Source: a virus (Duplodnaviria; Caudoviricetes). Taken from it: 57,614 nt of DNA. The notes under the pieces were generated by a model. That model was given only the letters and a program-made list of their open reading frames with translations, did not search any database and was not told the DNA's origin. The position numbers and the translations under genes are program-made. The stretch lies in IMG/VR virus record IMGVR_UViG_3300042934_000106, positions 1 to 57,614 of that record. One strand, written 5' to 3'. Below, piece by piece: positions 6,297 through 55,412 of the stretch (the first letter of the stretch is position 1; each line of letters starts with the position of its first letter).

Positions 6297-6363
6297 GTGT
6301 TCAGTGTGCTCCTTGTGTTGGTCGCAAGTCAACCATGGGGAGGAGTTGTGAAGGTGATCCACA

Positions 6364-6693
6364 TCACTCCACAACCGGAAGGATGTCCACCTCATCTTCA
6401 GAAACGTGGTCCCCCTCCGGGTACTCCAGTACGTAGTAGGGGTTCTTGGTTCCTCGCCAGGTGAAGGGGCCGGCAACCACCTTGAGAAGCCCATCAACGT
6501 AGCGGGCACGAACCACCTGACCCTCCTTGAACTTGGGCACAGCAGTCAGGTAGCTCTCTCCTCCAGTGAAGTGCTTCCCGTCGTCCTTCCGGACGAGGTA
6601 ACGAGGCTCGTATCCCGAGATGCCCTCAAAGGGGCCATACACGATGACACCCTGGCCCTGGGTGTGCTCAACCTTGTCTCCGGGCTTGAACAT
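6364..6693 (-). CDS. Hypothetical protein, two SH3-like repeats
   Basis: FKPGDKV / FKEGQVV, GPF repeated. Confidence 0.7.
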   Translation of the reverse strand: MFKPGDKVEHTQGQGVIVYGPFEGISGYEPRYLVRKDDGKHFTGGESYLTAVPKFKEGQVVRARYVDGLLKVVAGPFTWRGTKNPYYVLEYPEGDHVSEDEVDILPVVE

Positions 6694-10963: not shown

Positions 10964-11078
10964 TCCACACTCCCTCTGGTCGCATGTCAACTTGGGGGCT
11001 AAAATTAGGGGCTTCGTCAGCCCCTTCGTTCCCTTGCCTTCTAACTCCAGTATGACAGACCGTTGGTCGCAAGTCAAC

Positions 11079-13413: not shown

Positions 13414-13454
13414 AGAGAAGAAAAGAAGTACTTAAAAGCATGCCAACCCATCAA

Positions 13455-13484
13455 GTTGACATGCGACCAAGTACATGCTAGACT
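13455..13484 (+). promoter_or_regulatory. Rightward HrdB-type promoter overlapping the operator box
   Basis: TTGACA-17-TAGACT; GTTGACATGCGACCA. Confidence 0.75.
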
Positions 13485-34708: not shown

Positions 34709-35712
34709 TGAGTGATGCAGCAAAGATACTGGCTATAGCAGCCGGTGAAGTTGGTACCAAGGAGAAGTTCGAGGGAGGCCACTGGGTCAACAACTCGAAG
34801 TACAACCGATGGTTCGGCAAGATCCCCGGTTACTCTCAGGACGGCTATGGCTGGCCTTGGTGTGCGGCCTTCGTTACTTGGGTTGCCCATGAGGCGGATC
34901 TCCCCTCGCTCTACCCCAAGACTGCTGGGTGTGCGACCGCCGTAGCGTGGTTCAAGAACAAGGGACGCTTTTCCGAATACCCGGCTATTGGTGCCCAGGT
35001 ATTCTTCGGAAGCGGCGGGGGTTCCCACACGGGAATTGTCTATAAGTACGATGCCACCTATGCGTACACCATAGAAGGTAACACGAATCTTTCCGGGTCC
35101 GCGGAGGGAGATGGCGTTTACAAGCGTAGTCGTCTTCGTCGGGATTCTTACCTGTACGGATATGGGTACCCGGAGTTTTCTGAAGGCATTGTGACTGCTG
35201 ACCCCTCCAAGAAGGGCAAGAAGGGCTTCACCTACAAGGCTTCCGCCAGTGCCCCCGCTGCGCCGGCCAAGCCGACCGCTCCTAGCGGGAGTGACTACGT
35301 GGTGAAGGAAGGGGACACTCTCTCCAGCATCGGAGACAAGCTGAACGTCCCCTGGACTCAGCTTGCCAGTGTCAACAAGATCAAGGCCCCGTACGTTATC
35401 AAGCCTGGTCAGAAGCTCAAGGTCACTGGACCCACTGTCAGTGCTCCTAAGCCAAAGCCTGTGTCGTATGAGCCCTTCCCTGGTGCTGCGTACTTCAGGA
35501 AGAACCCTAACTCCAGCCTCATTGAGAGGCTGGGTAAGCGACTGGTCCAGGAAGGCTGCTCTGCCTACCAAGTTGGTCCCACCAAGCAGTGGACTGAGTC
35601 GGACCGGAAGAGCTACCGGAAGTGGCAGTTGAAGCTTGGCTACCGCGGCAGTGATGCCGATGGTTACCCCGGTAAGGCTTCGTGGGACAAGCTCAAGGTG
35701 CCGAAGGCCTGA
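34708..35712 (+). CDS. Endolysin (CHAP + LysM + peptidoglycan-binding)
   Basis: WCAAFV, HTGIV, TIEGNT; YVVKEGDTLS; ADGYPG..SW. Confidence 0.92.
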   Translation: MSDAAKILAIAAGEVGTKEKFEGGHWVNNSKYNRWFGKIPGYSQDGYGWPWCAAFVTWVAHEADLPSLYPKTAGCATAVAWFKNKGRFSEYPAIGAQVFFGSGGGSHTGIVYKYDATYAYTIEGNTNLSGSAEGDGVYKRSRLRRDSYLYGYGYPEFSEGIVTADPSKKGKKGFTYKASASAPAAPAKPTAPSGSDYVVKEGDTLSSIGDKLNVPWTQLASVNKIKAPYVIKPGQKLKVTGPTVSAPKPKPVSYEPFPGAAYFRKNPNSSLIERLGKRLVQEGCSAYQVGPTKQWTESDRKSYRKWQLKLGYRGSDADGYPGKASWDKLKVPKA

Positions 35713-36074
35713 CCAGGCAGAGGGGGTCGAGCCCTCGCGGGTGTCCGTGTGCGGGTAGGCGCTTAGGCGCCCCCGCGCGCGAGTCACTTTCGGGCTTTCA
35801 AATATCAGCAGATTTGAATAATCTCGTAGCACAGAATTTCATTCGCTTTTCCGGCCGAGCCTAAAGCATTTGAGTTCCCTCGCTCCCGGTTCCACCGGCC
35901 CCCTCTATTCCCCTACTCCCTTTCCCGCTTTATCTAGTGCTCCCAAGCTTTCCCTTTGTGAATGAATGAATCAGGGTACTCAAATTCATTCATTCGTGCA
36001 TGAGCATGAGAAAGGCCCTGTCCGTTATGGACAGGGCCCCTGGTCGTTGTCCCTCCTCAGACAGAGGTGAATGA

Positions 36075-36281
36075 ATGAAAGAACGTGCTCTCCGCCATGT
36101 CGTCCGACTGTCCGCCCTTGTTGCTGCGGCTGCTCCTGTAGCTGTCTCCGTGCTTGACTCCCTGTCGTGGGAGTGGGCCGTGTCCCTGTCTGCTGTCGTC
36201 CTCACCGCAGGTGAGTACGCTCAGCGTGTCGAGAACAGCAAGACCCTTCGTGCCTTCGTGGACGGGGCCTACGGCGAGTAG
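36075..36281 (+). CDS. Holin-like two-TM protein
   Basis: Two hydrophobic helices; GEYAQRVE. Confidence 0.6.
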   Translation: MKERALRHVVRLSALVAAAAPVAVSVLDSLSWEWAVSLSAVVLTAGEYAQRVENSKTLRAFVDGAYGE

Positions 36282-36415
36282 CTGCTTGCCGGCACACAAG
36301 CTGTGGTCGGTGGAGACTGACCACTAGGGGACTCCCGGAGTCCCTGAGAGTGAGAGAGGCGTCAGAATCGCTGATGCCGACTGGGGCCCGGACAACCGGC
36401 CCCTGAACGCAAGAA

Positions 36416-36446
36416 TGCCCCCTGGCCAATGGCCAGGGGGCTATTC
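36416..36446. terminator. Terminator between convergent late and early operons
   Basis: CCCCTGGCCA/TGGCCAGGGG stem. Confidence 0.7.
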
Positions 36447-36495
36447 GTGTTTCTACCGCCAGTGAGTGGTCAGGTACACCAGTACCAGGACCACA

Positions 36496-36648
36496 TCAAG
36501 GGTGATCAGTACCGGTATCCACGCACGTCGTCTTCCTCGCATACTGCTGACCCCCCGTTGTCTCATGCTTCCATGTCCCGTCTGACCAACGACGGACCAG
36601 AGCCGTATAGCGGCCCTGGACTACGTGTGTTCTCTTGTGCTGGGGCAT
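36496..36648 (-). CDS. Hypothetical protein (50 aa)
   Basis: AGGAG RBS; read manually. Confidence 0.45.
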   Translation of the reverse strand: MPQHKRTHVVQGRYTALVRRWSDGTWKHETTGGQQYARKTTCVDTGTDHP

Positions 36649-36659
36649 GTCTCCTGGAT

Positions 36660-38003
36660 TCACAACCAACCCCCAGACAGCATAAGTTCTTGTGTCTCGG
36701 GGTTGTCCAGGGTCCGCACCTTAGGTTGCTCCGGAATCCGTACCTGTGCCGGCACGGGCTCTTGTTCCTGCTGTTCTGCCTCAGGTTCCGCAGGAACGCT
36801 CTCGACGTTGGCCCACCGGTACTCGGTTCCAGGTCGACCACGGCCAGAGGTAACCCCCGTGACAATCCGAATGTCGGGCATACCTTCCAGCGCCTTACGG
36901 AAGGCTGCTGCCTTTGCTCGTGCTCCCAGAGCACGGAGCATGTCGGAATGAGCCACCTTGCCATCGTGTCGAGTCATGATCTCTCGGATTAGATCAGGCA
37001 GACTCTTGAACTCTCCTCGGCTGGAAGCCTTTGTGTCCTCTCGAACAAGCTTCCCTACGCTCTGAGTGGAGTATTGAACGAACGCCCACGCAGCATTGAC
37101 AGCCTTTCGGCTGATGACTGTCTGGCGCTCTGTCGCGGTGAGTACCGCGGCCACCCTCAGAATCTGCTCTGGAGTTCGTTCGACATAGCAGGAAAGGTGC
37201 TTAGGAGTCTCCTCCTGCTTAAGTTCGAACTCAACGCGGAGTTCGTCAAAACGCTCCCCCGCGGAAGGGTCCAGTGTAAGCACACGGGGACGGCTACGAG
37301 CCCAATCATAGGCTTCAGCAAGCCCCTTCACCTCTGGGTAAAGCTCCCTGTTGTTGTATGGCAGGATCTTGGACCGGTGCACAAGCACGGGGAGGAGCCT
37401 GTTATAGCTACCTCCCCGGGCATCCCGCGGTTTGATGTAGTCAGTCCACTCCCCTGGTGTGATGTGGGAGTGAAAGCCCAGACGGGGATCAGGGACAGTC
37501 ATAGACACTCTTGTCGTGGTGTGCCGGATGGTGGCCCCATCCCAGCAATTCCGTAGCTTGCTGGCAAAGGTAGGACACCGGTTCTGTCGCTTCAGGTTCT
37601 CTGACCACTCCTCATCAATGGTGATGACTCGTGTGTCCGGACCTCCTTCAGTTCCCTCCGTCCGCTCCTGTTGCTCAAACAGAACCTGAGTGAGAGACGG
37701 ACCAGACGACACACCCCCCGCGGTGCGGTCTTCCAGGAACGCACCGATAGAGGGTTGCAGCATTCCCTTGGCTACCCGTAGCGCAGTCCCCTTACGGCCG
37801 ATGGCAGATTCCCCCGCAAGTACAGTCCAGACGACGACAGGGCGCCCGTTCCAGAGCGTCACGTGTCCACCGATGGCACTGGACCACAGAGCAAGCACCG
37901 CGGCGTACACACCTACCGGGTCTGCCTCTGTGTAAGGGTCCGCGGCAACGACAGCATCGCCGATGGGCCCATACCTCATGCTCTCGAATGCTTCCAGGCT
38001 CAT
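36660..38003 (-). CDS. DUF3987-like P-loop ATPase/helicase with C-terminal winged helix
   Basis: GESAIGRKGT, IDEE, WDG, HITP, GSYNRLL. Confidence 0.7.
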   Translation of the reverse strand: MSLEAFESMRYGPIGDAVVAADPYTEADPVGVYAAVLALWSSAIGGHVTLWNGRPVVVWTVLAGESAIGRKGTALRVAKGMLQPSIGAFLEDRTAGGVSSGPSLTQVLFEQQERTEGTEGGPDTRVITIDEEWSENLKRQNRCPTFASKLRNCWDGATIRHTTTRVSMTVPDPRLGFHSHITPGEWTDYIKPRDARGGSYNRLLPVLVHRSKILPYNNRELYPEVKGLAEAYDWARSRPRVLTLDPSAGERFDELRVEFELKQEETPKHLSCYVERTPEQILRVAAVLTATERQTVISRKAVNAAWAFVQYSTQSVGKLVREDTKASSRGEFKSLPDLIREIMTRHDGKVAHSDMLRALGARAKAAAFRKALEGMPDIRIVTGVTSGRGRPGTEYRWANVESVPAEPEAEQQEQEPVPAQVRIPEQPKVRTLDNPETQELMLSGGWL

Positions 38004-38131
38004 GACTCCCCCTTTTCCGGAGTGTCACATGTCGAGCCCAATGGATTGTCCCCGTCAAGGACGTGCACCCATCGACCCATCCAAATAACCAGGACTCCAC
38101 AGTTCTTGCACATTCCACTGAACTTACTCAC
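38000..38131 (-). CDS. Small Zn-finger-like protein (43 aa)
   Basis: 4-bp overlaps both ends; CKNCG...WVH...C. Confidence 0.55.
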   Translation of the reverse strand: MSKFSGMCKNCGVLVIWMGRWVHVLDGDNPLGSTCDTPEKGES

Positions 38132-38328
38132 TGTCCTACCTCCATCGGATCTCCGAGAATCTGAGTGAACTGGTCAGCGAACTTGTCCTCATGCTCCTTG
38201 CACAAGAACCACGTCTTGCCGGCAAGGCGGATCTCTACCACGGAGTCAGTAGCTGATCCGTCCTTTCGGTAGCACCCATCACATGCGTTCTCTATGACTT
38301 GCTCGATCATTCTCACTACTCGTGCCAT
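38128..38328 (-). CDS. Lsr2 N-terminal-domain-like protein
   Basis: Pattern resembles Lsr2 oligomerisation domain; CDGC...C..H. Confidence 0.45.
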   Translation of the reverse strand: MARVVRMIEQVIENACDGCYRKDGSATDSVVEIRLAGKTWFLCKEHEDKFADQFTQILGDPMEVGQ

Positions 38329-38441
38329 TGCTCCTCCTTAAGCCGCTGGATAGCGGCATTCCTTGCTTCCTCGTTGCTCAATCCAGCCTTCTTGTACTCC
38401 GCGTAGTAGTTGCGGTATCGCTGGTACCATCCCGTTCTCAT
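38316..38441 (-). CDS. Hypothetical protein (41 aa)
   Basis: GAGGAG RBS after stem-loop. Confidence 0.55.
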   Translation of the reverse strand: MRTGWYQRYRNYYAEYKKAGLSNEEARNAAIQRLKEEQWHE

Positions 38442-38525
38442 CTACTCTCCTCTATTGACTGACCAACCATGAACGCAAGCAGTCCCCCGCGGTTAAGAGG
38501 GGGACTGCGTACGAACATGAGAGGC

Positions 38526-38792
38526 TCAGACAGTCACTCGATACGTCGTAGTCCGACGCTGGTACAGGAACTCCTTTACGACTGCCTTGACCAGGAACCT
38601 AGTTACCTGGGCAGGATCTGCGTAAGCCTGAGCTGTTGTCCCGCAGTCCTCAAACACTGCCCTGAGAGCATCCATTCGGAGTTTGGGGGTCTCCATCCAT
38701 GCTGCTGTCATGGCACGGAAGACAAGCTCCCCTGACTCTTCTGCGTACCGCTTCATGAGGCTCACTTGATTACCTCCACACAGTAGAAACAC
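38526..38792 (-). CDS. Hypothetical protein (start uncertain)
   Basis: Operonic ORF. Confidence 0.6.
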   Translation of the reverse strand: MFLLCGGNQVSLMKRYAEESGELVFRAMTAAWMETPKLRMDALRAVFEDCGTTAQAYADPAQVTRFLVKAVVKEFLYQRRTTTYRVTV

Positions 38793-39030
38793 GGATGGCC
38801 ATTTCCTCTGTTACGGGAAAGAGGATGTGGACACAGGTTACGTAGGACGATCTGTTGAGGAGCCCTCTTGCCTTTTCCACGGCTCCGGCATAGCTTTCCG
38901 GCTGAGGGTGAATCCATGACTCATCTTCAAAGGGTTTCCCCTCCTGATCTACGCCCACCAACTCAAAGAAGAGTGTGGCGGGGTCGAACGTCACGCCGTT
39001 TACTGTCTCCTGCACTGCCATCACATCCAA
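38770..39030 (-). CDS. Hypothetical protein
   Basis: Operonic ORF. Confidence 0.6.
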   Translation of the reverse strand: MDVMAVQETVNGVTFDPATLFFELVGVDQEGKPFEDESWIHPQPESYAGAVEKARGLLNRSSYVTCVHILFPVTEEMAIRVSTVWR

Positions 39031-39401
39031 TACTTTCCCTCAGCGTGCCAAACGGCACGGAGTACACGGGCAATCTCCGCTTCGATGAACGACCACTCAG
39101 CCTTAATGACGTGGCGGACACTGATGTCTGTCCGGTGTGCCGCCCGCTTTGCCTTGCGCCATTCCAGCGCACGATGAATGGTCATCAGTTCCAGCTTGGA
39201 CAGTTCCCACGCCTGTTCATCAGGCAGGAAGTTGTCCGAACTCATATGCACCATGCCGCGGGCAGCACTCACGTACTCCGTGCCAGTCCAGATGTTGTCT
39301 CGTGACTGGAGTTCCAGGGCCCTGCGGAGTGTGGTCCGGACGTAGGCTGTACATGCGTAGCTGTAGGTAGCTACGCGGTAGGTCTGTTCCGTGTCGTTCA
39401 C
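39021..39401 (-). CDS. Hypothetical protein
   Basis: GGAGG RBS after stem-loop. Confidence 0.7.
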   Translation of the reverse strand: MNDTEQTYRVATYSYACTAYVRTTLRRALELQSRDNIWTGTEYVSAARGMVHMSSDNFLPDEQAWELSKLELMTIHRALEWRKAKRAAHRTDISVRHVIKAEWSFIEAEIARVLRAVWHAEGKYWM

Positions 39402-39493
39402 TGCCTTACCTCCGTGTTGTGCGCTAAGTGGTTCCTAGCGACTCGGCAAAGGTGACTGGCAAACGTCAGTCACCAATGCCCAATCCCTAGGAA

Positions 39494-39694
39494 CTAGTGC
39501 GTGACAGGGGCAGTGGTGATGCCCGGATCATCGTCCTTACGGTGCGTCTCGCACCGAAGAACACATGAGCAGTGCTTGTCCCCGCGGAACTCAAAGAACT
39601 CCCAATGAGTGGGAGACTCCTCACAGAGGGGGATGCACTTCTTACCCTCCGAGGCCGCATAACTGGAGTAGTGAACGCCGATACGGTTACTCAT
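39494..39694 (-). CDS. Hypothetical Cys/His-rich protein
   Basis: AAAGG RBS; stop starts stem-loop. Confidence 0.6.
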   Translation of the reverse strand: MSNRIGVHYSSYAASEGKKCIPLCEESPTHWEFFEFRGDKHCSCVLRCETHRKDDDPGITTAPVTH

Positions 39695-39761
39695 TTGTCT
39701 GCCTTTCCGGGCATAGAAAAGGGACCAAGGGCGTGTTCCCTCAGTCACACCTACTGCTGTT

Positions 39762-40145
39762 TCAGGCGCCGTTCCGGCATCCTTGCTTGACGTATTCAGC
39801 CTGTGCTCGCACGGAACGGCGCTCCCCGTTGTCCGTGTCGTCTGACACTAGGTCTCGGTACATAACGCGTCCCGCTTCAGTCTCCTGCATGGCCCCGCAA
39901 GGACCGTAGGACGCAGTCAGAGACTCCACTGTGGGTTCGTCCACACAGAGACGGCCGTTACCGTCTTCCTTGACGGAGGAGCCATCCTCGAAGGTGATGG
40001 TTGAACAGGCTCCGTCCTTGAATGCAGACACCCTTGCCCGCTGCACTTCCTGTCGGTTGTGCTCTTGCATCACGGAGTGAGTGATGCCCACGGAAACACC
40101 CGCAGAAAGGATGATGGACACCAGTGCAGTAGCGATGTACCTCAC
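39762..40145 (-). CDS. Secreted/membrane-anchored hypothetical protein
   Basis: N-terminal TM. Confidence 0.65.
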   Translation of the reverse strand: MRYIATALVSIILSAGVSVGITHSVMQEHNRQEVQRARVSAFKDGACSTITFEDGSSVKEDGNGRLCVDEPTVESLTASYGPCGAMQETEAGRVMYRDLVSDDTDNGERRSVRAQAEYVKQGCRNGA

Positions 40146-40146
40146 G

Positions 40147-40347
40147 TCAGTTCCCCGTCTCGTCGTAGTTGTACGCGTCGTCTCGCTGGCATGTGAACCA
40201 GGAATGATGCTCCTGGCCTACCTGGGAGTTCCAGTCTCGGCAGTCAGCCTCTTGGCATTCCGAGCACAGTTCAGGCTTTGTGGTGTCACTCGATACCGTG
40301 ATGTCCATGCAGTCACGGCAAGCGCAGTGCGTGTTTCCGCTGGTCAT
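40147..40347 (-). CDS. Cys-rich hypothetical protein
   Basis: CACRDC...CSEC. Confidence 0.65.
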   Translation of the reverse strand: MTSGNTHCACRDCMDITVSSDTTKPELCSECQEADCRDWNSQVGQEHHSWFTCQRDDAYNYDETGN

Positions 40348-40349
40348 GT

Positions 40350-40733
40350 TCACGCCCCCCATTCCGTCATCGCGTGACGCTCACCGTGGTACTCACTTCC
40401 GCATCCCTGGCAATCAGACATGCTGAATGTGTTCGTCTCGCAGTCGCATTCGTAGTCGTCTGGGTAGACGTGGTCCGACGGGTCGTGGTGAGCCCGGGAG
40501 TCGTCTCCGTGCTCTTCACAGTCGTCGCCGTGAGTGCACATGCACTTGACCGCGCATGCGTCGTCATGGTCCTCCCGCCCCATACCGGGACACGCCTCAG
40601 GGGACAGGCGAGAAAGAGGCTCACCCCCCTCATGCCCCTCATCACGATGGCAGTCTCCGCACTCGCCGTTCGCAGCGTGCATGATGCAGTTCGTGCACAC
40701 CCAAATGGTCCACGACTCACGTGTCTTGCCCAT
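40350..40733 (-). CDS. Cys/His/Asp-rich hypothetical protein
   Basis: CTNC...CQGCG..YHGERH. Confidence 0.7.
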   Translation of the reverse strand: MGKTRESWTIWVCTNCIMHAANGECGDCHRDEGHEGGEPLSRLSPEACPGMGREDHDDACAVKCMCTHGDDCEEHGDDSRAHHDPSDHVYPDDYECDCETNTFSMSDCQGCGSEYHGERHAMTEWGA

Positions 40734-40810
40734 AGTCTTGCCTTTCACTTGAACGGATAGGGTCAATACGGGGGCCGGGCTTGCCGGCCCCCTCTATTCA
40801 CCCGACCCAT

Positions 40811-40987
40811 TCAGGAGTGGTGCAGGAAGAACGAGTGAAGCTCATCCATGTCATTCCGAGAGAGCCAGTGGTTCCACTCAGGAGACAACGGGGGGCGGAA
40901 CATTCCCTCCGGAAACCAGTCAGGCAGAGGACCCTTTGTGAGTCCCTGCATGGGCAGAGGCAGATCCTTGTCCAGGGTGACGCTCAT
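40811..40987 (-). CDS. Hypothetical protein (58 aa)
   Basis: AAAGGA RBS; TGA starts stem-loop; read manually. Confidence 0.55.
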   Translation of the reverse strand: MSVTLDKDLPLPMQGLTKGPLPDWFPEGMFRPPLSPEWNHWLSRNDMDELHSFFLHHS

Positions 40988-41052
40988 TCTCGTGTCCTTT
41001 CATGCGACCCTGATTGGTCGCATGTCAACCTATGGGTAAAAAAAGGAGTGGG

Positions 41053-41223
41053 TCAGCGAGAGAGGTACTTACGGATAGACTGGCGGAACTTGCTTTCGTC
41101 ACCGCGCTTGACACTGCGACGCTTCACCTTGCGCCCCCTACCGGGAGGCTGGCCACAGCAGTAACAGTCTCGCCCTCCGGGTCCCTCCGGGCACTGCTTG
41201 CCTGGCATCCTGCCCTGGTTCAC
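41053..41223 (-). CDS. Small basic Cys-rich protein
   Basis: GTGA overlap; GPGGRDCYCC. Confidence 0.6.
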   Translation of the reverse strand: MNQGRMPGKQCPEGPGGRDCYCCGQPPGRGRKVKRRSVKRGDESKFRQSIRKYLSR

Positions 41224-41402
41224 TTGCTCCCCCTGCCCACACGGAGTGCCTGATACGTCGACCTGAGATCCTGAGGACGATTGTCCCTGAGGTAGTAACC
41301 CCAACCCCAAAGGGTGACCGGATCGTTCTTGTTCCGACGTGCCTCCAACACGTCCTCCGGAACGGGCCCCTTGGGTGCGTTCTGCTTGGCCAGGTTAACC
41401 AT
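41220..41402 (-). CDS. Hypothetical protein
   Basis: TAATG overlap. Confidence 0.6.
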   Translation of the reverse strand: MVNLAKQNAPKGPVPEDVLEARRNKNDPVTLWGWGYYLRDNRPQDLRSTYQALRVGRGSK

Positions 41403-41599
41403 TACTCGTCACCTCTGATTCCGTACTCCGTGTTGACCATACGGGCGTCAATCTCTGCCCCGTAGAAGTTGATGAGCACGACCGCAGCTTGCTTGACGTG
41501 ATCCGGGGTGTCCGGGTGGTTGCGGATCAGATCCATACGGAATCGAGCGTTGTACAGATCTTCACCAGTCATGCTCTTGAGCGCAGGGATGTTCCTCAT
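41402..41599 (-). CDS. Hypothetical protein
   Basis: ATGA overlap, GGAGG RBS. Confidence 0.65.
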   Translation of the reverse strand: MRNIPALKSMTGEDLYNARFRMDLIRNHPDTPDHVKQAAVVLINFYGAEIDARMVNTEYGIRGDE

Positions 41600-41871
41600 G
41601 CTGCCCTCCTGACGAACTTGTACGGACCGGCGTTGCCGGCACGCATCATGAGCCTGCCGTTCTTGCTCCACTTGGTCTCGTAGCTCTCGTAGAGGGTTGT
41701 GAAGGCGTCGCTGTGCTCCTTGTACGCCTCAGCGTGGAATGCAGCCCACTCCTGTGCCTCCGTCATGTCCGGGGCCTGATGCGTCATGCCCACAGAGGGA
41801 GCCGTGACCATGCCACCGATACCGAGACCGAACACCACGGTCATGACCGCGGAGATAACCCACATGATCAT
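41596..41871 (-). CDS. Membrane-anchored hypothetical protein
   Basis: GAGGA RBS after repeat R1; N-terminal TM. Confidence 0.65.
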   Translation of the reverse strand: MIMWVISAVMTVVFGLGIGGMVTAPSVGMTHQAPDMTEAQEWAAFHAEAYKEHSDAFTTLYESYETKWSKNGRLMMRAGNAGPYKFVRRAA

Positions 41872-41886
41872 TGCTCTGTCCTCTCC

Positions 41887-41950
41887 TAGACGGAAGTAAC
41901 AGGACACACGGACGGTTCATGCCGTCCGTGTGTCCGATACCTCTTATCTA
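41887..41950 (-). repeat. Intergenic structured repeat R1
   Basis: TAGA-TAA-GAGGTA-TC-[14-bp stem]-TGT-TACTTC-CG-TCTA on minus strand. Confidence 0.85.
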
Positions 41951-42187
41951 GCGGTACATTGTTGCTGCGGTAAGACCAATCCACTCCCCAACGATCTCTT
42001 CCGGGGTGTATGCAATGTCATCCCACATGACCTCTACTGCGTCGAACGCGTCGATGACGTTCAACCACTGATAGCGGTTGATCATCTTAAGTGCTCCCAG
42101 TGCTTCCGCGTATTGCCCGCTGTTGTACTGACGGATGATCCCGTTACGGAACGGGATCAGGGTGTTGCTGTATCCGGTTTGCATCAT
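41948..42187 (-). CDS. Hypothetical protein
   Basis: AAGGAG RBS; stop is first codon of R1. Confidence 0.65.
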   Translation of the reverse strand: MMQTGYSNTLIPFRNGIIRQYNSGQYAEALGALKMINRYQWLNVIDAFDAVEVMWDDIAYTPEEIVGEWIGLTAATMYR

Positions 42188-42216
42188 GATGTACTCCTTT
42201 ATATCGCCTTTAAACA

Positions 42217-42271
42217 TAGACGGAAGTAAGAGGGCGCCTGTACGAGACAGACGCCCGATACCTCTTATCTA
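42217..42271 (-). repeat. Intergenic structured repeat R2
   Basis: Same frame as R1, different apical stem. Confidence 0.85.
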
Positions 42272-42303
42272 GGTCAGCATGTATGGTCGCAAGTCAACTT
42301 AAG

Positions 42304-42660
42304 CTAGTCCGTTGTCTCTACGTAGACCAGGTAACCGTCCTGGCGCTCCCAGTGGTATCCGAGCTTGACCAGTCCATCGAACACGAACACCGCCCGACCG
42401 CAGTCGGCGCACTGGTGAGGGTGAGTGTCCGTGCTGGCCTTGATAGGGCCCTGGTCCACCACGCAACGGACCACGTTACTGGGAACGCTGTCCTCCTGCT
42501 TGGCCTGTGGCTTGAACTTGCTCTGGTCCACGTTGTGGTTGATCAGAGTCAGGTTCGCGTAAAGACGGACCGAGGACAGCATGCGTGCCGCTTCGAGTTC
42601 ATCCGTGAACTCAGGACGGAATACCTTGCCCTGGTCGTCCTTGTACTGTACGTAGAACAT
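42304..42660 (-). CDS. Hypothetical protein
   Basis: AGGAG RBS after R3. Confidence 0.7.
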   Translation of the reverse strand: MFYVQYKDDQGKVFRPEFTDELEAARMLSSVRLYANLTLINHNVDQSKFKPQAKQEDSVPSNVVRCVVDQGPIKASTDTHPHQCADCGRAVFVFDGLVKLGYHWERQDGYLVYVETTD

Positions 42661-42678
42661 TGATGCTCCTGTATCTGC

Positions 42679-42733
42679 TAGGCGACAGTAAGAGGACGCT
42701 GGTTCGAGACCAGCGCCCGATACTGCTTACCTA
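42679..42733 (-). repeat. Intergenic structured repeat R3
   Basis: TAGG-TAA-GCAGTA-TC-[stem]-TCT-TACTGT-CG-CCTA. Confidence 0.85.
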
Positions 42734-42906
42734 TGCTTAGAGCACGTATTTAGACCTAGCTGTCTCGGCCTCTTACAGGGAGTCCCCTTGACCGTCGTCT
42801 TACCGCACTGCCAGTAGGGGTCATGTGTTACACAGACTGCCTTGCCTTTCTGTGCGTTGTTGATGCACTTGTATCCGTTGTCCCTTACCTTGGAGCACTT
42901 AGCCAC
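42727..42906 (-). CDS. Small tandem CCCH Zn-finger protein
   Basis: C..G.KC...C..H twice. Confidence 0.65.
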   Translation of the reverse strand: MAKCSKVRDNGYKCINNAQKGKAVCVTHDPYWQCGKTTVKGTPCKRPRQLGLNTCSKHR

Positions 42907-42910
42907 CGTG

Positions 42911-43231
42911 TCACTCTCCAATGGCGCGGTTCACCCGTGCCTGATACTGCTTGTAGACCGAGTCCGTGTCAGTGGAGGGGGACACAACCTCCTGTCCCTC
43001 TTGGATGATCCGAGCCTGGCCGACCCATTCCTGGTACCGCAGTCCGCTAGCAGGATGGCCAACGACGGTGGCCCACTCTTCTACCGGCTCAGTCGGCACC
43101 CCTTCCTCATCGAACCAAGAGTAGGTGTGTGCCTCCCTCTTCTCCGTGGTCTGATGTGTTCCGCGGTGCCCTGATTCCAGAACACACACATCCCGTCCGT
43201 ACTTCCAACGGTTACCACACTTGTCTGTCAT
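42911..43231 (-). CDS. Hypothetical protein, first gene of early operon
   Basis: AAGGAG RBS after R4; C...CVLESGHRGTH. Confidence 0.65.
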   Translation of the reverse strand: MTDKCGNRWKYGRDVCVLESGHRGTHQTTEKREAHTYSWFDEEGVPTEPVEEWATVVGHPASGLRYQEWVGQARIIQEGQEVVSPSTDTDSVYKQYQARVNRAIGE

Positions 43232-43246
43232 GTCTTGCTCCTTGCA

Positions 43247-43309
43247 TAGGCGACAACATGCCGGCACCTAGACTCCGGAGAGGCTAGCTACCGTCATGCC
43301 GCTTACCTA
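43247..43309 (-). repeat. Intergenic structured repeat R4
   Basis: TAGG-TAA-GCGGCATG...CATGTTGT-CG-CCTA. Confidence 0.75.
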
Positions 43310-43393
43310 TCAATGTGTTGTCAGGATGCAGCCGCGGAGGGTTTCATGCCCCCGCACCCTTGACGCTTAGCCTATTACGCTTAGGCGGTTTCA

Positions 43394-43439
43394 CTGTTGA
43401 GTTCTCAAGGTGTAGCCGATGGCTCACTTTGTACTGAGC
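43394..43439 (-). promoter_or_regulatory. rrn-like boxB hairpin plus boxA antitermination element
   Basis: Minus strand GCTCA-GTACAAAG-TGAGC then CCTTGAGAACTCAACAG. Confidence 0.6.
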
Positions 43440-43496
43440 TAGGTGACTAGCCGTTCCTCCGGGCCCTGTCGTCCGGTTGCCCTTCCGACACAGAGA

Positions 43497-43526
43497 ACAT
43501 TACGGGGTCCGTGGTCGCATGTCAAC
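43497..43526 (-). promoter_or_regulatory. Leftward early promoter overlapped by operator box
   Basis: TTGACA-17-TAATGT; GTTGACATGCGACCA. Confidence 0.8.
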
Positions 43527-44159
43527 CGGACCACCAAGATCTTCTGTGCAGACTTCATTCATTCATGCATGGGTGTGGTGGGAGCACAGGGTGTAGGCCC
43601 GTACCTCTACATAGAGGAACGCGTGTGCGCGCATACCACAGTATGCGGGTGTGCACAAATACGCAGGTCAGTATGCATGCAGTGCTGTGAAGGGTGAGGC
43701 ACAGAGGTAGGCACAGGTGCACCTGACTACCTGCCCACCGGGCCCTGAGGCTGGCTACAGCTGTACCCGCTCCCCGTCCATTGGGTCATGATCCTGCGCT
43801 CCCCCGCCAGGTATCTCATTGAATGAATGACCTAATTCCAGGCCAGCATGGATTGAATGCCGGCATGCTATTGCCTCAACCCTGCCCGCGTTTATTCATT
43901 CATTTGCATGCGTGTGTACACACCCGGGGTAATGCGTTTATATATACGCAACGGACCCGCCGGGGGCACCTTCCTTCGATCGTGTACGGGTAATGAAGCG
44001 TTGAGAGCCTCTCTAAGAGCCTCCCAGCCCTATCCCTGCCCAAGTCCCTCCAGACCCCTTTTTGAGCCCTCTGAGGGACTCTCAGGCCCTTTCTGGCCCT
44101 ATCCGGGCCTCAGACCCTCCATCTGGGACGAGAATGAATGAAAGAAGTGCCCTCATACG

Positions 44160-44227
44160 TGTGATCTGGCTCTCAGTTCCAGGATTCTTGACACCAACCA
44201 CCGCGTAGTGACACCGACATCTATATT
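44160..44227 (+). promoter_or_regulatory. Duplicated 68-bp element, putative late promoter (copy B)
   Basis: Matches 13346-13413; ends in TATATT. Confidence 0.6.
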
Positions 44228-44417
44228 GTAAAGGGTTTGAGATATATACCCCCTAGTGATCTTGAGTGTGACAGTAGAGCCCCGCCGGGGGAGGCGGGGC
44301 GACAGTAGTAGGGCCGCTCCCTCAGAGCGGCCTAATGAATGAAATAAGTGTTAGCCGGCCCCCAGAGGGGCCAGCATAGTGCAGGAAAGAATGAATTAAG
44401 TAGCCCGGGACATGAGA

Positions 44418-44460
44418 AAGCCCCCTCCCCCGCAAAGGGAGGGGGCTATTTCTGTTTTCT
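44418..44460. terminator. Bidirectional terminator
   Basis: AGCCCCCTCCC/GGGAGGGGGCT with A/T flanks. Confidence 0.75.
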
Positions 44461-44747
44461 CAGTTGTAGAACTGAGTTCCAGGGTCGAACGGAGAAGTCT
44501 GAGGCTTCCTGGGCCTCCAGTTCCGAGGAGTCTGACCCTCTCCTGTCCTGTCCCACTCCAACCAAGAAAGGAAGCAGTGGTTTAGCCACGCCTGGGCACC
44601 GTGCTTGGTGTACCACTCCAGGGGTTTGGTGTTGCCTTGGTCATCCACCAAGGAACAGTAGTCGTACCACTCCAGATCTAGGATGCCGAACTTTCTTCCA
44701 TCCCTGGTGGCAGTGATCTTGTAACGTCCTACGCTCTGCTCCATCAC
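44460..44747 (-). CDS. Hypothetical protein
   Basis: GGAGG RBS, overlap. Confidence 0.7.
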   Translation of the reverse strand: MMEQSVGRYKITATRDGRKFGILDLEWYDYCSLVDDQGNTKPLEWYTKHGAQAWLNHCFLSWLEWDRTGEGQTPRNWRPRKPQTSPFDPGTQFYN

Positions 44748-44998
44748 CCCTCCTTGGTGACAATCAGGGTCCTAGCCTCACCATGAACCCAGATGGGACA
44801 ACGCCACTCCCCTACAGAAGCCACGGTCGCCCCCACAGACCCTGTCTGGAAGTCCCTGTTGGCCTGTACGGCGCTCATCGCCACCCCATCGGGGTCTTCG
44901 GCCAGTAGTTCGGTCAGAACCTCCATGGAGGCTGCCTGAATCTCCTGCATGGTCCCCTTCTTCAGGGCTTGGCCGGCCAAGGTGGCTGTGTAGGTCAT
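44744..44998 (-). CDS. Hypothetical protein
   Basis: ORF MTYTATL. Confidence 0.65.
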   Translation of the reverse strand: MTYTATLAGQALKKGTMQEIQAASMEVLTELLAEDPDGVAMSAVQANRDFQTGSVGATVASVGEWRCPIWVHGEARTLIVTKEG

Positions 44999-45189
44999 GG
45001 GAGCCATTCTGCCCCGGACTCGGACCTCTTGTAGATAGTTGGCACAGACGACCTCGGTTCGTTGTAGTCTCTGACCACGGGCCATCCCCCTCAAGTTTGG
45101 CCCACAGAAGACCCCTGTACTCCTCGTCTGGGTTACCGGCCACTGGCCGGGGGCTGAGGGCAGGGGTCTTCTCACGCCCAGGACAGCAG

Positions 45190-45220
45190 AAAGCCCCCTC
45201 CCGAAGGAGGGGGCTTTTTC
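45190..45220. terminator. Bidirectional terminator
   Basis: AAAGCCCCCTCC-CGAA-GGAGGGGGCTTTTT. Confidence 0.85.
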
Positions 45221-45230
45221 GTAACCCAGG

Positions 45231-45413
45231 CTACGCCGGGCCAACGTCGTTCACCTGGATTCCCTTGCCCAAGTCATGTGCCAAAAAGACCTGACCTCCT
45301 CCTACCTCGTGACCTTGATCCCGGAGAGCTTGAAGCATGTCCTGCTTCATGGAGTCGAGAGCCTGGAGCTTGACTACGGCCGACTCAACTTCCTCAGACA
45401 CAGACTCATCCAT
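45231..45413 (-). CDS. Hypothetical protein
   Basis: Operonic ORF. Confidence 0.6.
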   Translation of the reverse strand: MDESVSEEVESAVVKLQALDSMKQDMLQALRDQGHEVGGGQVFLAHDLGKGIQVNDVGPA

Positions 45414-45633
45414 GAGGCCCCGCCTTCACCTTGTACTGAACGAGCATCTGAGGAACCGTACCGCGGTCCTCGTAGCCCTGGAGCCAACCATGCTCCAGGA
45501 TGTTGGCCATCATCTTCAGAGCCCACCTGGTGGCCTCGGACTGAGACTTCCCTGTCTCCATGATGATCTTCAGAGACCTGTCGGACTCATCCGTCCTCGG
45601 GACGGACAGGTTCTTCACTACGCGCTTGGTCAC
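45406..45633 (-). CDS. Ribbon-helix-helix-like DNA-binding protein
   Basis: NLSV...LKII.ETGKSQSEATRWAL. Confidence 0.55.
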   Translation of the reverse strand: MTKRVVKNLSVPRTDESDRSLKIIMETGKSQSEATRWALKMMANILEHGWLQGYEDRGTVPQMLVQYKVKAGPHG

Positions 45634-45798: not shown

Positions 45799-47385
45799 TT
45801 GACACAAGTACGTACTCCAGCGCTACTCTCCCTCTACCAGAACGAGGGGGTTGAGTTGCTGTCACCCGACTTGCCACTAGCAGGGTACTGCCGGATCTCG
45901 GATGCAGACCTAGCAGACATCAGAAGAGCCTTGCGACAGGGAGACATCACAGAAGAGGAAGCCGCGGAGCTTGAGAGGAAAGGTGTCCTCAAGCAGAGGG
46001 ACGACGTAAGGACCCTGGCAGAGCGTCATGGTCGAGAGGTCATCTACTACGAGGACAACAACCTCAGCGCCTTCAAGCGCAACGTCCAGAGGCCACGGTT
46101 CCTTCAGATGGTCAAGGACTTGAAGGCCGGCCGACTGGCCGGGATGGTCGTCTACGACATTGACCGAGGCTTCAGACAGCCTCGGGACCTTGAGAAGGTC
46201 ATTGACATCTACCAGGACTTTGCCGAACGCAAGGACGTCCGGATGATCTTTGACACGATGTCAGGCCAGAACTACGACCTCTCCACTGGGGATGGTCGGT
46301 TCTCGGCCCGTCTGTTCGTCAGCATCGCCAACAAGTCCTCCGAGGACACCTCCAGACGGATCAAGAGGGACAACCTCTCCAAGGCCAAGAAGGGTGTCTT
46401 CCACGGAGGAGGCCCTGCCTTCGGTTGGCGCGAAGACGACAGGACCAAGCTAGACCCCAAGGCCGCCGAGCTGGTGAGGAACGTCGTCCTGGGCCACCTC
46501 AAGGGTGACAAGATCGCCACTTGCATGGAATACCTCAATGACAATGGTGCTCTCAACCCCAGCACAGGGAAGCCCTTCACCTGGGCTGGCACCAAGACCC
46601 TCATCTTCAGGGCACGCAACTTTGGGATCAGGATCTACCAAGGTGAGCCACAACTCAACGAGGACGGAGGCTACGTCCTCGGAGACTGGGAGCCCATCTT
46701 CACCAAGGACGACGGCACCCCCGACTTCGATCTCTGGGAGCGCCTGGAGGCGCTGAAGAAGGGCAAGAGCCCTGAGGGGGTACAGGACAAGTCTCAGGTC
46801 AAGTACCTGCTCTCCAGGATTGTCCGATGTGGTCGTTGTGGCTACCCGATGGTTGGTAAGACCGTATGGGTCCGCGGGAAGAAGTCTGAGTCCTTCGCCT
46901 ACAACTGCAACAAGAGCAACCCTGATGCCTGTGGTCGGATGGGAGCTACCGGCCCGAGGGTTGACGAGCTGGTAAAGCAGCTCGTCTGGGCTCAAGTCCT
47001 CCGAGCCAGCAAGAACCGTGCTGTCCCAGAGCCTCAGGACTCCTGGAACAAGGAGTCAGAGCTGAAGGACGTTGAGGATCAGATCACAGAGCTTAAGGCT
47101 CTGTGGGTAGCCAAGAGGGTCAAGGCTGCAACCTACGTCACCACTCTTGATGATCTGGAAGAGCAGAGGTCTGAGCTGAAGGCGGAACGAGCCTTCCATA
47201 CGGCTACGCCGGCAGTTCGCGTCATCACTCCCGAGCTGATGAAGAACGGCTGGGAGGGTCTCTCTGTCGAGAGGCAGCGGATCATCATCAGGTCTGTTCT
47301 CAAGGCAGTCATCATCCACCCTGCCAGGGACGGCAAGAAGGGCGGGCCGTTCGACCCTGCCCGGGTCGAACCAGTCTTTGCCTAG
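45799..47385 (+). CDS. int: Large serine integrase (start may be TTG 45855)
   Basis: YCRIS catalytic motif, RPRF, DRGFR, CGRCG...C...C Zn ribbon, coiled coil. Confidence 0.95.
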   Translation: MTQVRTPALLSLYQNEGVELLSPDLPLAGYCRISDADLADIRRALRQGDITEEEAAELERKGVLKQRDDVRTLAERHGREVIYYEDNNLSAFKRNVQRPRFLQMVKDLKAGRLAGMVVYDIDRGFRQPRDLEKVIDIYQDFAERKDVRMIFDTMSGQNYDLSTGDGRFSARLFVSIANKSSEDTSRRIKRDNLSKAKKGVFHGGGPAFGWREDDRTKLDPKAAELVRNVVLGHLKGDKIATCMEYLNDNGALNPSTGKPFTWAGTKTLIFRARNFGIRIYQGEPQLNEDGGYVLGDWEPIFTKDDGTPDFDLWERLEALKKGKSPEGVQDKSQVKYLLSRIVRCGRCGYPMVGKTVWVRGKKSESFAYNCNKSNPDACGRMGATGPRVDELVKQLVWAQVLRASKNRAVPEPQDSWNKESELKDVEDQITELKALWVAKRVKAATYVTTLDDLEEQRSELKAERAFHTATPAVRVITPELMKNGWEGLSVERQRIIIRSVLKAVIIHPARDGKKGGPFDPARVEPVFA

Positions 47386-54681: not shown

Positions 54682-54771
54682 ACATCTCCGATGCCGAACC
54701 AAAGGGGGCCGGCCGGATTACCGGCCCCCAGAGCGACCATTGGTCGCATGTCAACCTTTGGGTAAAAAGAA

Positions 54772-55317: not shown

Positions 55318-55412
55318 GTCTCCATCCGGGAGGGGCCTTTGGAGCCCCTCCCTCTAATTCCATTGTGGCAGTAGAGTTGGTCGCAAGTCAACCTAGATGC
55401 CTGTGGTGGGGG

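What the first reader, a model, noticed from the sequence alone, without database searches (positions are those of the whole stretch)
36496..43526. Candidate rRNA-mimicking early operon: promoter, rrn-type boxB/boxA leader and genes separated by processing-type RNA stems
Seen: a promoter at 43497-43526 (TTGACA-17-TAATGT, minus strand) is followed by a ~260-nt leader containing a hairpin and then CCTTGAGAACTCAACAG. About 20 small unknown, often Cys/His-rich genes follow, interrupted by at least seven 55-80-nt irregular stems that mostly begin at a stop codon and end just before the next RBS. Known: rrn operons recruit NusB/NusE/NusG at boxA and are cut by RNase III at long stems. T7 early and SPO1 host-takeover mRNAs are processed at intergenic RNase III stems. 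Inference: the phage builds its first-expressed transcript like a pre-rRNA, antiterminated by host Nus factors without an obvious N-like protein and then cut into stable monocistronic mRNAs. I know of no description of this combination in actinophages.
Basis: partly seen in the sequence, partly recalled or inferred. Interest (0 to 1): 0.88.

Follow-up and report, generated by a model that had tools for sequence, protein, structure and literature searches.

The report
Phage early leader copying host rRNA leader
A Streptomyces phage starts its right-end early operon with an RNA leader that copies the host's ribosomal-RNA operon leader, probably to borrow the host's anti-termination machinery, and separates the small genes that follow with conserved RNA stems.

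Summary
The window is a complete temperate Streptomyces siphophage related to Ibantik. A promoter (TTGACA 43525-43520, 17 nt, TAATGT 43502-43497, minus strand) lies about 440 bp from the virion right end. Its ~260-nt leader aligns to a profile of 29 Streptomycetaceae rrn leaders from the -10 region to boxC (43503-43393, E 9e-6). It contains the exact 15-mer found 100-240 nt upstream of 16S rRNA in actinobacteria. The same mimic occurs in 133 deposited phage records, 128 from Streptomyces. In nearly all listed rows it is unannotated, on the minus strand and close to the right end. I found no description in print. About 21 genes follow, only one with a Pfam family. Seven long intergenic stems are real. 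One family of 13 copies in six phages is 96% paired, with compensatory changes at 11 of 21 pairs and G-U pairs that fit only the sense RNA. Corrections: the operon also holds two copies of an 11-member L5-type operator/promoter motif, and no stem resembles host rRNA. Nus-dependent antitermination is the best reading but is untested. RNase III cleavage is one of several open readings of the stems.

The parts
43551..43571 (-). A/T-rich block upstream of the -35, conserved in relatives (UP-element-like or a protein site; function not tested)
   Evidence: Its central 13 nt are invariant or nearly so in the alignment of 6 leaders; sequence read
43497..43527 (-). Early promoter: -35 TTGACA 43525-43520, 17-nt spacer, -10 TAATGT 43502-43497. 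The 16-nt operator-like motif 43527-43512 overlaps the -35
   Evidence: The strict sigma-70 scan did not list it
43232..43490 (-). Untranslated leader of about 260 nt (start inferred from the -10, not mapped)
   Evidence: Indels between relatives are mostly not multiples of three
43393..43503 (-). Stretch aligned to the profile of 29 Streptomycetaceae rrn leaders (-10 region to boxC)
   Evidence: nhmmer: 21.2 bits, E 9.1e-6, top hit in the whole window; next hit E 0.025
43437..43452 (-). boxB-like hairpin (6 pairs, 4-nt loop), at the same place as the host rrn hairpin
   Evidence: MFE hairpin, but z +0.24. The stem sequence differs and still pairs in the relatives
43427..43435 (-). AGTACAAAG block shared with the Streptomyces rrn leader
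43394..43410 (-). boxA/boxC core, identical to the host rrn leader over 17 nt
43247..43309 (-). Degenerate copy of the type-A stem just before the ribosome-binding site of gene 1
   Evidence: z -2.5; homologue in L242
36496..43231 (-). 21 ORFs. g1 43231-42911; g2 42906-42727; g3 42660-42304; g4 42187-41948; g5 41871-41596; g6 41599-41402; g7 41402-41220; g8 41223-41053; g9 40987-40811; g10 40733-40350; g11 40347-40147; g12 40145-39762; g13 39694-39494; g14 39401-39021; g15 39024-38770; g16 38765-38526; g17 38441-38316; g18 38328-38128; g19 38131-38000; g20 38003-36660 (DUF3987, 447 aa); g21 36648-36496
   Evidence: Synteny with Ibantik genes 87-106
42679..42733 (-). Type-A stem, copy 1 (contains the TAA stop of g2)
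42284..42299 (-). Operator/promoter-like motif copy inside the operon
42217..42271 (-). Type-A stem, copy 2
   Evidence: Flagged terminator-like
41887..41950 (-). Type-A stem, copy 3 (starts at the TAG stop of g4, ends at the next ribosome-binding site)
   Evidence: (z -6.4). Flagged terminator-like
41015..41030 (-). Operator/promoter-like motif copy, part of a 9-bp palindrome
40750..40813 (-). Long irregular stem between g9 and g10
   Evidence: (z -4.5)
39711..39757 (-). Weaker hairpin with the best U-rich tail (terminator-like)
   Evidence: z -1.4
39431..39494 (-). Long irregular stem between g13 and g14. The upper stem differs from Ibantik's and still pairs
   Evidence: (z -5.9)
38468..38519 (-). 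Stem between g16 and g17, 92-96% identical in three relatives
   Evidence: (z -4.2)
36417..36441 (.). G+C-rich hairpin at the convergent junction with the lysis genes: likely end of the operon
   Evidence: z -5.4

Best explanation
This is the P-left-type early lytic operon of a temperate, L5/R4-style Streptomyces siphophage. Transcription starts about 440 bp from the virion right end and reads inward. The first ~100 nt of the RNA imitate the 5' leader that the host makes from its rrn operons. The order is the same: purine-rich start, small hairpin (boxB-like), then the boxA/boxC core.

Inferred mechanism. The nascent leader is bound by host NusB-NusE and NusA. Together with NusG it converts RNA polymerase into the fast, termination-resistant form normally reserved for rRNA. 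No phage N-type protein would be needed. The modified polymerase then crosses the long untranslated leader and eight structured intergenic gaps to express about 21 small early genes.

The stems act as RNA on the sense strand. Most likely they mark sites where the polycistron is cut, or where 3' ends are protected. Some may also be weak terminators that the modified polymerase ignores.

Shown: the sequence mimicry, its conservation, its spread among Streptomyces phages, and the RNA structures. Inferred: factor binding, antitermination and cleavage.
For: 1. The 15-mer occurs 120 times in 120 fetched genome loci. Of the 48 with at least 400 nt downstream, 39 have the 16S 5' end within 400 nt.

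2. A profile of 29 Streptomycetaceae rrn leaders has its top hit in the whole window at 43503-43393, at E 9.1e-6.

3. The shared blocks are of the Streptomycetaceae type, not that of other actinobacteria.

4. Among 6 related leaders with 57% mean column identity, the core is exact in 3, has 1 change in L242 and 2 in L244.

5. The host leader finds 133 phage records, 128 from Streptomyces. All 60 best rows are on the minus strand about 0.5-0.7 kb from the right end, and 58 of the 60 have no annotated feature under the match. Several unrelated genome sizes are represented. Of 118 IMG/VR loci, 36 also show likeness beyond the 15-mer.

6. In Lannister the mimic follows TTGACA-17-TAGAGT and precedes an Ocr-like antirestriction gene.

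7. The right-end position follows from mapping Ibantik's ends to 43968/43969. The repressor is a homologue of L5 gp71 (31% identity over 151 aa, E 3e-11). L5-type P-left is the early lytic promoter at the right end (passages of PMC5712189).

8. Type-A stems: 96% of cells paired, 11 of 21 pairs with changes on both sides, 0 of 500 shuffles reaching this. Recurrent G-U pairs fit only the sense RNA.

9. NusA binds boxC specifically in M. tuberculosis rrn, and NusB-NusE binds boxA (passages of PMC2724277).
Against: No binding, read-through or cleavage was or could be tested here.

The 5' flank of the core differs from the host's in this phage, so part of the presumed NusB-NusE site may be changed.

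One relative, L246, has a degenerate core. L5 itself has none: 0 matches at up to 3 mismatches.

The boxB-like hairpin is not thermodynamically distinctive. Its z-scores range from -1.9 to +1.2, and it is the MFE fold in 7 of 9 sequences.

The strict promoter scan found nothing.

Two more operator/promoter-like motifs inside the operon could reduce the need for long-range read-through.

In E. coli the Nus complex at a BoxA in an mRNA leader can repress translation and promote Rho termination. rRNA may also not need Nus factors to resist Rho (passages of PMC5725501).
Confidence: 0.55

Rival explanations
1. Decoy. The leader is made in large amounts, is perhaps released at the stem before gene 1, and soaks up NusB-NusE and NusA. 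Host rRNA synthesis and ribosome assembly fail, and the effect on phage transcription is secondary.
For: In L5, D29 and StarStuff the P-left leader is the most abundant phage RNA. It is stable, is processed into species with a common 5' end, and is toxic to M. smegmatis (passages of PMC5712189). A structured element sits between the mimic and gene 1 (43309-43247).
Against: The toxic L5 leader has no boxA/boxC core, so its toxicity has another cause. The mimic is always in cis, upstream of genes, at the start of a long structured operon. No abundance data exist for this phage.
Confidence: 0.15
2. Sensor or brake. As at E. coli suhB, Nus factors bound to the leader repress translation of gene 1 and favour Rho termination. 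Early expression would then be tied to free Nus factors, that is, to the growth state of the host, and would feed the lysis-lysogeny choice.
For: Such BoxA-dependent repression is shown for suhB and proposed to be widespread (passages of PMC5725501). The mimic includes the promoter-proximal part of the rrn leader, which suggests shared growth-rate control.
Against: The core lies about 160 nt upstream of the gene 1 start codon, beyond the 100 nt tested for suhB. Conservation at the head of long early operons in many lytic-cycle contexts fits activation better.
Confidence: 0.1
3. For the stems only: they are leaky intrinsic terminators or attenuators, or plain 3'-end protectors, and not RNase III sites. 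Their conserved arms persist because they serve as recombination joints between gene cassettes.
For: Three stems are flagged terminator-like. The scan found 13 sites in 35500-45500 against 6.0 +/- 2.4 expected. In L243 the genes between two stems are absent, and the joint lies inside a hybrid stem made of the 5' half of one and the 3' half of the other. The conserved left arm offers stop codons in two frames, used by g2 and g4.
Against: The stems are 20-27 pairs long with conserved internal loops, and the U-rich tails are poor. That is longer than usual terminators. The conserved unpaired bases suggest recognition by a protein.
Confidence: 0.35
4. The likeness is a functionless scrap of host DNA picked up by chance.
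For: Phages do capture host DNA.
Against: Only the leader module matches; nothing else in the operon matches host rrn loci. The match sits at the same place behind the early promoter in 133 records of several phage types. Its core stays fixed while the flanks diverge.
Confidence: 0.03

Closest known systems
Bacterial rrn antitermination leader (boxB-boxA-boxC; NusA, NusB, NusE, NusG, SuhB, S4 complex)
   Same: Same order of elements directly after the promoter. The core is identical to the host's own rrn leader, and the match runs from the -10 region to boxC.
   Different: It heads a protein-coding phage operon, not rRNA. The 5' flank of the core differs. The 16S processing-stem strand that follows in the host is absent. 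Factor binding is untested.
Phage lambda nut sites with N protein
   Same: A phage early transcript carries a boxA related to rrn boxA and uses host Nus factors for processive antitermination (passages of PMC2724277).
   Different: Lambda needs N bound to its own boxB, placed after boxA. Here the order and the hairpin are those of the host rrn leader, and no N-like protein is evident. 20 of 21 ORFs have no Pfam family, so one cannot be excluded.
HK022 put RNA (recalled, no call)
   Same: A cis-acting phage RNA that makes polymerase termination-resistant without a phage protein.
   Different: put acts directly on polymerase and does not resemble host rRNA leaders.
P-left early promoter, leader RNA and repressor-stoperator system of cluster A mycobacteriophages and R4-like Streptomyces phages
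   Same: Early lytic promoter at the right genome end reading inward, with a long non-coding leader. The repressor is homologous to L5 gp71. Asymmetric repeated sites contain the -35 and are oriented with transcription (passages of PMC5712189, and PMC10276819).
   Different: The L5 leader has no boxA/boxC core. The rrn likeness of the Streptomyces phage leaders is not mentioned in the passages I read.
RNase III sites between T7 early genes and in SP82/SPO1 early mRNA (recalled, no call)
   Same: Irregular stems of 20 or more pairs with internal loops between early genes, alike among copies.
   Different: Cleavage is unproven here. There is no sequence likeness to host rRNA processing stems. 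In R4-like phages the spacers hold tRNA-like minihelices instead.

Membership tests
rrn-type antitermination leader (boxB-boxA-boxC) | boxA/boxC sequence as in the host's rrn operons | tested here: met
   17 nt identical to Streptomyces rrn leaders. 39 of 48 testable genome loci carrying the 15-mer have 16S within 400 nt. The profile hit is at E 9.1e-6. The 5' flank of the core differs.
rrn-type antitermination leader (boxB-boxA-boxC) | Position in the transcribed leader just after the promoter, with the hairpin before boxA | tested here: met
   The core lies about 80-95 nt after the inferred start, and a hairpin lies 27 nt upstream of it. The transcription start was not mapped.
rrn-type antitermination leader (boxB-boxA-boxC) | Binding of NusB-NusE and NusA | not testable with these tools
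   Needs purified Streptomyces factors and leader RNA.
rrn-type antitermination leader (boxB-boxA-boxC) | Read-through of terminators that depends on boxA | not testable with these tools
   Needs reporter or end-mapping experiments.
RNase III processing sites of phage early mRNAs | Conserved double-stranded RNA of about two helical turns, with internal loops | tested here: met
   Type-A: 21 consensus pairs, 96% paired, 11 compensatory pairs. Other stems have 18-27 pairs.
RNase III processing sites of phage early mRNAs | Cleavage by RNase III giving mature mRNA ends | not testable with these tools
   No RNA data could be brought to bear.
Intrinsic terminators | G+C-rich hairpin directly followed by a U tract | tested here: inconclusive
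   3 of 8 gap stems pass the loose scan. The tails have only 3-7 U in 10.
L5-type repressor-stoperator immunity | gp71-family repressor plus many asymmetric sites oriented with transcription, one over the -35 of the right-end promoter | tested here: met
   Repressor 31% identical to L5 gp71, E 3e-11. There are 11 sites, 10 on the minus strand in leftward-transcribed DNA and 1 on the plus strand at the start of the rightward genes. Binding was not tested.

The most novel reading that the evidence does not exclude
Streptomyces phages of several unrelated lineages disguise the start of their first transcript as a host pre-rRNA. This loads the host rRNA antitermination complex onto polymerase with no phage protein. 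They then punctuate the polycistron with dedicated structured RNAs: type-A stems in this lineage, tRNA-like minihelices in R4-like phages. Host RNA-processing enzymes would cut at these elements, so the early operon is handled like a stable-RNA operon from start to finish.
Probability: 0.3. Interest if true: 0.88.

Novelty: new variant of a known kind. Interest (0 to 1): 0.8.

Why it matters
Processive antitermination by host Nus factors is textbook for lambda, but there it depends on the phage N protein. A protein-free copy of the host rrn leader at the head of early operons would be a simple, general take-over device for Gram-positive, high-G+C hosts. Its presence in more than a hundred sequenced Streptomyces phages would also give a function to a region that is unannotated under 58 of the 60 best-listed matches and carries a probably spurious hypothetical gene in the two Ibantik records.

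It offers a natural, compact part for driving long operons in Streptomyces engineering. It gives a handle on rRNA antitermination in actinobacteria, which is little studied outside M. tuberculosis. The conserved intergenic RNAs are testable candidates for how these phages turn one early transcript into many messages.

Tried and rejected
Rfam. At gathering thresholds the window holds only the tRNA-Met. With permissive E-values on 36300-43800 there were only three chance-level hits, and none on the Lannister locus.

Host rRNA likeness of the stems. A blast of the whole operon against 120 host loci matched only the leader core, plus scattered 15-20-nt chance hits. I dropped the idea that the stems copy rRNA processing stems.

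tRNA-like reading of the type-A hairpin. The loop of one copy reads as a T-loop on the opposite strand. The other copies do not, and the G-U pairs fit only the sense strand. Rejected.

L5 leader. It has no boxA/boxC core, so the toxic L5 leader RNA is not explained by this mimic.

Leaders of Rhodococcus and Microbacterium rrn as queries. They found mostly the same Streptomyces phages through the shared core, plus Gordonia phage Bantam. They gave no clear host-matched sets.

Protein annotation. Pfam gave 1 of 20 ORFs scanned (g17 was left out). PHROGs gave four families without informative function plus a weak primase-like hit for g20.

RNA evidence. No RNA holder was listed; only two soil-metagenome DNA runs hold the stretch. 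I laid no reads.

Thermodynamic support for the boxB-like hairpin. Not significant.

Literature. Searches found no paper that links actinophage leaders to rrn boxA or antitermination. The library lacks most subscription journals. I could not read the 2013 J Bacteriol comparison of R4-like phages or the two M. tuberculosis NusA papers (not held). I did not ask for supplementary files; those of PMC5712189 and PMC10276819 might bear on leader alignments and stoperator lists. I built no covariance model, so the census rests on blastn and nhmmer.

Full report
What the window is.

The window is a whole virus record of 57,614 bp. Its nearest named relative is Streptomyces phage Ibantik, at 80% identity over 29% of the queried stretch. 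Mapping Ibantik proteins onto the window gives:
- a serine integrase at 45931-47382 (+);
- leftward replication genes: DNA polymerase 52466-50433, ribonucleotide reductase 57613-55898, helicase 7535-6729;
- a repressor at 13014-12517 (-);
- rightward structural and lysis genes from about 13.8 to 36.3 kb.

Ibantik's physical ends map to 43968/43969. The finding is therefore the right-end arm of the virion DNA, read inward. The repressor is a homologue of L5 gp71, with 31% identity over 151 aa and E 3e-11, and falls in PHROG repressor families.

The promoter.

TTGACA lies at 43525-43520 and TAATGT at 43502-43497, 17 nt apart. The strict scan lists no promoter in 35500-45500, because the -10 matches the E. 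coli consensus at only 3 of 6 positions. It does fit the TANNNT form usual in actinobacteria (my own knowledge).

The -35 is embedded in a 16-nt motif. That motif has 12 matches in the window at up to 3 mismatches, against 0.58 expected, and 0 of 100 shuffles reach this. I count 11 as real and drop the one at 57128-57143, which lacks the TTGAC core. Ten are on the minus strand in leftward-transcribed DNA. One is on the plus strand at 13454, at the head of the rightward genes. Six have a plausible -10 at 17-18 nt.

The design is an asymmetric site that contains the -35 and is oriented with transcription. This is the design of the L5 operator and stoperators (sequence of the L5 right end; passages of PMC5712189; R4-like phages in passages of PMC10276819). 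Two copies lie inside the operon, at 42299-42284 and 41030-41015. They may be internal promoters, repressor roadblocks, or both.

The leader.

Of the 48 occurrences with at least 400 nt downstream, 39 have the 16S 5' end within 400 nt. In the listing it lies 103-241 nt away. The nine exceptions include clear chance hits in non-actinobacteria and a few actinobacterial loci that look phage-like.

In Streptomyces the rrn leader reads, after a TAGAGT -10:
- a purine-rich start;
- a conserved GCCCGGAGG block;
- a small GNRA-type hairpin;
- GAGTACAAAGGAAGCG;
- the core.

The phage leader has the same parts in the same order. A profile of 29 Streptomycetaceae leaders aligns to 43503-43393, from the -10 region to boxC, as the top hit of the whole window (21.2 bits, E 9.1e-6; next hit E 0.025). 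A broader profile of 47 actinobacterial leaders matches only the core (17.0 bits). So the likeness is specifically to the host family.

The naming of the parts as boxA and boxC follows the M. tuberculosis literature. In the passages I saw, boxC is a specific NusA site and boxA binds NusB-NusE (PMC2724277). Exactly where boxA ends and boxC begins in actinobacteria is recalled, not checked.

Conservation.

I found five IMG/VR relatives through the DUF3987 protein; four of them include the leader. With Ibantik that makes six leaders, with 57% mean column identity. The invariant blocks are:
- the A/T-rich block upstream;
- the -35;
- an 11-nt block after the start;
- the GGCCCGGA block;
- the core;
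- GAAACCGCC after it.

The core is exact in the window, Ibantik and L243. It has one change in L242, two in L244, and is degenerate in L246. The hairpin has a different stem sequence in each of the six and still pairs in the folds of the window, L242, L243 and L244. In Ibantik the four-pair hairpin is not the MFE fold. Its stability is not above that of shuffles (z -1.9 to +1.2).

Indels among the six are mostly not multiples of three. This argues against the opposite-strand gene annotated over this stretch in Ibantik (gene 107).

Spread.

The Streptomyces rrn leader used as a blastn query finds 133 phage records, 128 of them Streptomyces phages. All 60 best rows are on the minus strand, 0.5-0.7 kb from the right end. 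Fifty-eight of them have no annotated feature under the match; the two Ibantik rows lie under gene 107.

The spread listing adds several groups:
- genomes of 46 kb;
- genomes of 125-128 kb, with the match on the plus strand about 6.4 kb from the end;
- genomes of 115 kb and 133 kb;
- a few chance-level hits inside genes.

In Lannister the mimic follows TTGACA-17-TAGAGT, the same -10 as the host rrn promoter. It precedes an acetyltransferase, small unknowns and an Ocr-like antirestriction gene, with 86-119-nt spacers between most genes.

Of 118 IMG/VR loci holding the 15-mer, 36 score at least 16.5 bits against the host profile, while motif-only hits score about 10-16 bits. By my arithmetic, a 15-mer is expected by chance about once per 10^9 positions, so the rest are probably chance.

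Genes.

The ORF chain has 21 members. Only g20 (447 aa) has a Pfam family, DUF3987. PHROGs adds nothing functional. Six of the 21 are Cys-rich. g8 has an arginine-rich stretch, so an N-like factor cannot be ruled out.

Stems.

Folds of the eight gaps and the operon end are given. Three gaps, and in degenerate form the stretch before gene 1, hold one family, which I call type-A. It has nearly invariant arms of about 17 nt and a variable G+C-rich upper hairpin. I aligned thirteen copies from six phages. The consensus has 21 pairs in two helices separated by conserved internal loops, and 11 pairs show changes on both sides. Other measures:
- 96.0% of cells are paired, against 82.6 +/- 1.4% in shuffles (0 of 500 reach it);
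- the slid controls give 35-55% paired;
- the two subtypes of the conserved lower helix differ by compensatory changes;
- three positions are mostly G-U, which fits RNA of the sense strand only.

The left arm supplies the stop codon of g2 (TAA) and of g4 (TAG), in different frames.

The other long stems are at 40813-40750, 39494-39431 and 38519-38468. Their upper parts vary and still pair between relatives. The last of them is 92-96% identical in three relatives whose flanks are 75-90% identical. In L243 the four genes between two stems are missing and the joint is a hybrid stem, so the stems also mark cassette borders.

In the sliding fold of the minus strand, 7 of 26 clusters with z below -2.5 fall in the operon, which is 12% of the window. 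They are 7 of the 17 clusters that lie in leftward-transcribed DNA.

No stem resembles host rrn DNA. Type-A arms occur only in this phage group among all fetched loci.

Mechanism.

The most economical reading is that the leader is a working copy of the host rrn antitermination signal. It is kept because the early operon begins with 260 untranslated nucleotides and is broken by eight structured, untranslated gaps. These are exactly the situations in which Rho or hairpins would stop an ordinary elongation complex.

By analogy with L5-type phages, this promoter is the first to fire and is the main target of the repressor. Rivals are a Nus-factor decoy, a suhB-like brake, and, for the stems, terminators or 3'-end protectors rather than RNase III sites. 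None can be settled without RNA-end mapping and reporters.

Novelty.

Seven literature searches found no description. Within the limits of the library, the rrn-leader mimic of Streptomyces phages appears unreported. It is a new variant of a known kind, Nus-dependent processive antitermination signals of phages. It differs from lambda in copying the host leader wholesale and in showing no sign of a dedicated phage protein.

Noticed in passing
L247 (Streptomyces phage Lannister, NC_028827) 1222-1270, 1995-2043, 2917-2965, 3863-3911, 4586-4634, 5141-5189, 6350-6398: Seven of ten spacers between Lannister's right-end early genes hold a tRNA-like minihelix. It has a 5-pair acceptor-like stem stacked on a 6-pair T-stem with a 7-nt T-loop, and 5 of 11 pairs show compensatory changes. 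ARAGORN and Rfam call nothing there. They look like punctuation marks for RNase P or RNase Z-type processing.
   Followed up: partly
window 3657-3672, 6001-6016, 6319-6334, 10977-10992, 11064-11079, 41015-41030, 42284-42299, 43512-43527, 54741-54756, 55378-55393 (all -) and 13454-13469 (+): An eleven-member family of a 16-nt asymmetric motif that contains TTGAC and is oriented with transcription. With the L5 gp71-like repressor at 13014-12517, it looks like an operator/stoperator set.
   Followed up: partly
L248 (mycobacteriophage L5 right end, minus strand), about record 51100-51190 and 51130-51160: The abundant, toxic P-left leader of L5 lacks the boxA/boxC core. It does contain an internal TTGACA...TAGAGT followed by a purine-rich stretch like the start of actinobacterial rrn leaders. 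It also has a T-arm-like hairpin followed by an acceptor-like tail.
   Followed up: partly
window 38442-38525 (-): This intergenic element is 92-96% identical in three relatives whose flanking genes are 75-90% identical. It includes about 25 unpaired nucleotides after the stem. It may be a small RNA or a protein site rather than a simple stem.
   Followed up: partly
L243 6401-6499 compared with window 40813-40771 and 39452-39395: A relative lacks genes g10-g13, and the deletion or exchange joint lies inside a stem-loop made from halves of two window stems. The stems act as mosaic borders.
   Followed up: partly
L027 (Kitasatospora sp. genome contig) around 5840-5936: An rrn-leader-like module not followed by 16S within 400 nt. 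Its downstream sequence resembles an IMG/VR contig (L208), so it may be a prophage early leader.
   Followed up: no
L001 406-663 (Ibantik gene 107): The annotated hypothetical gene on the opposite strand overlies the conserved promoter and leader. Indels among relatives are mostly not multiples of three, so it is probably not a gene.
   Followed up: partly
window 43551-43571 (-): An A/T-rich repeat-like block about 25-45 nt upstream of the -35 is conserved in all six relatives. It may be an UP-type element or a binding site.
   Followed up: no
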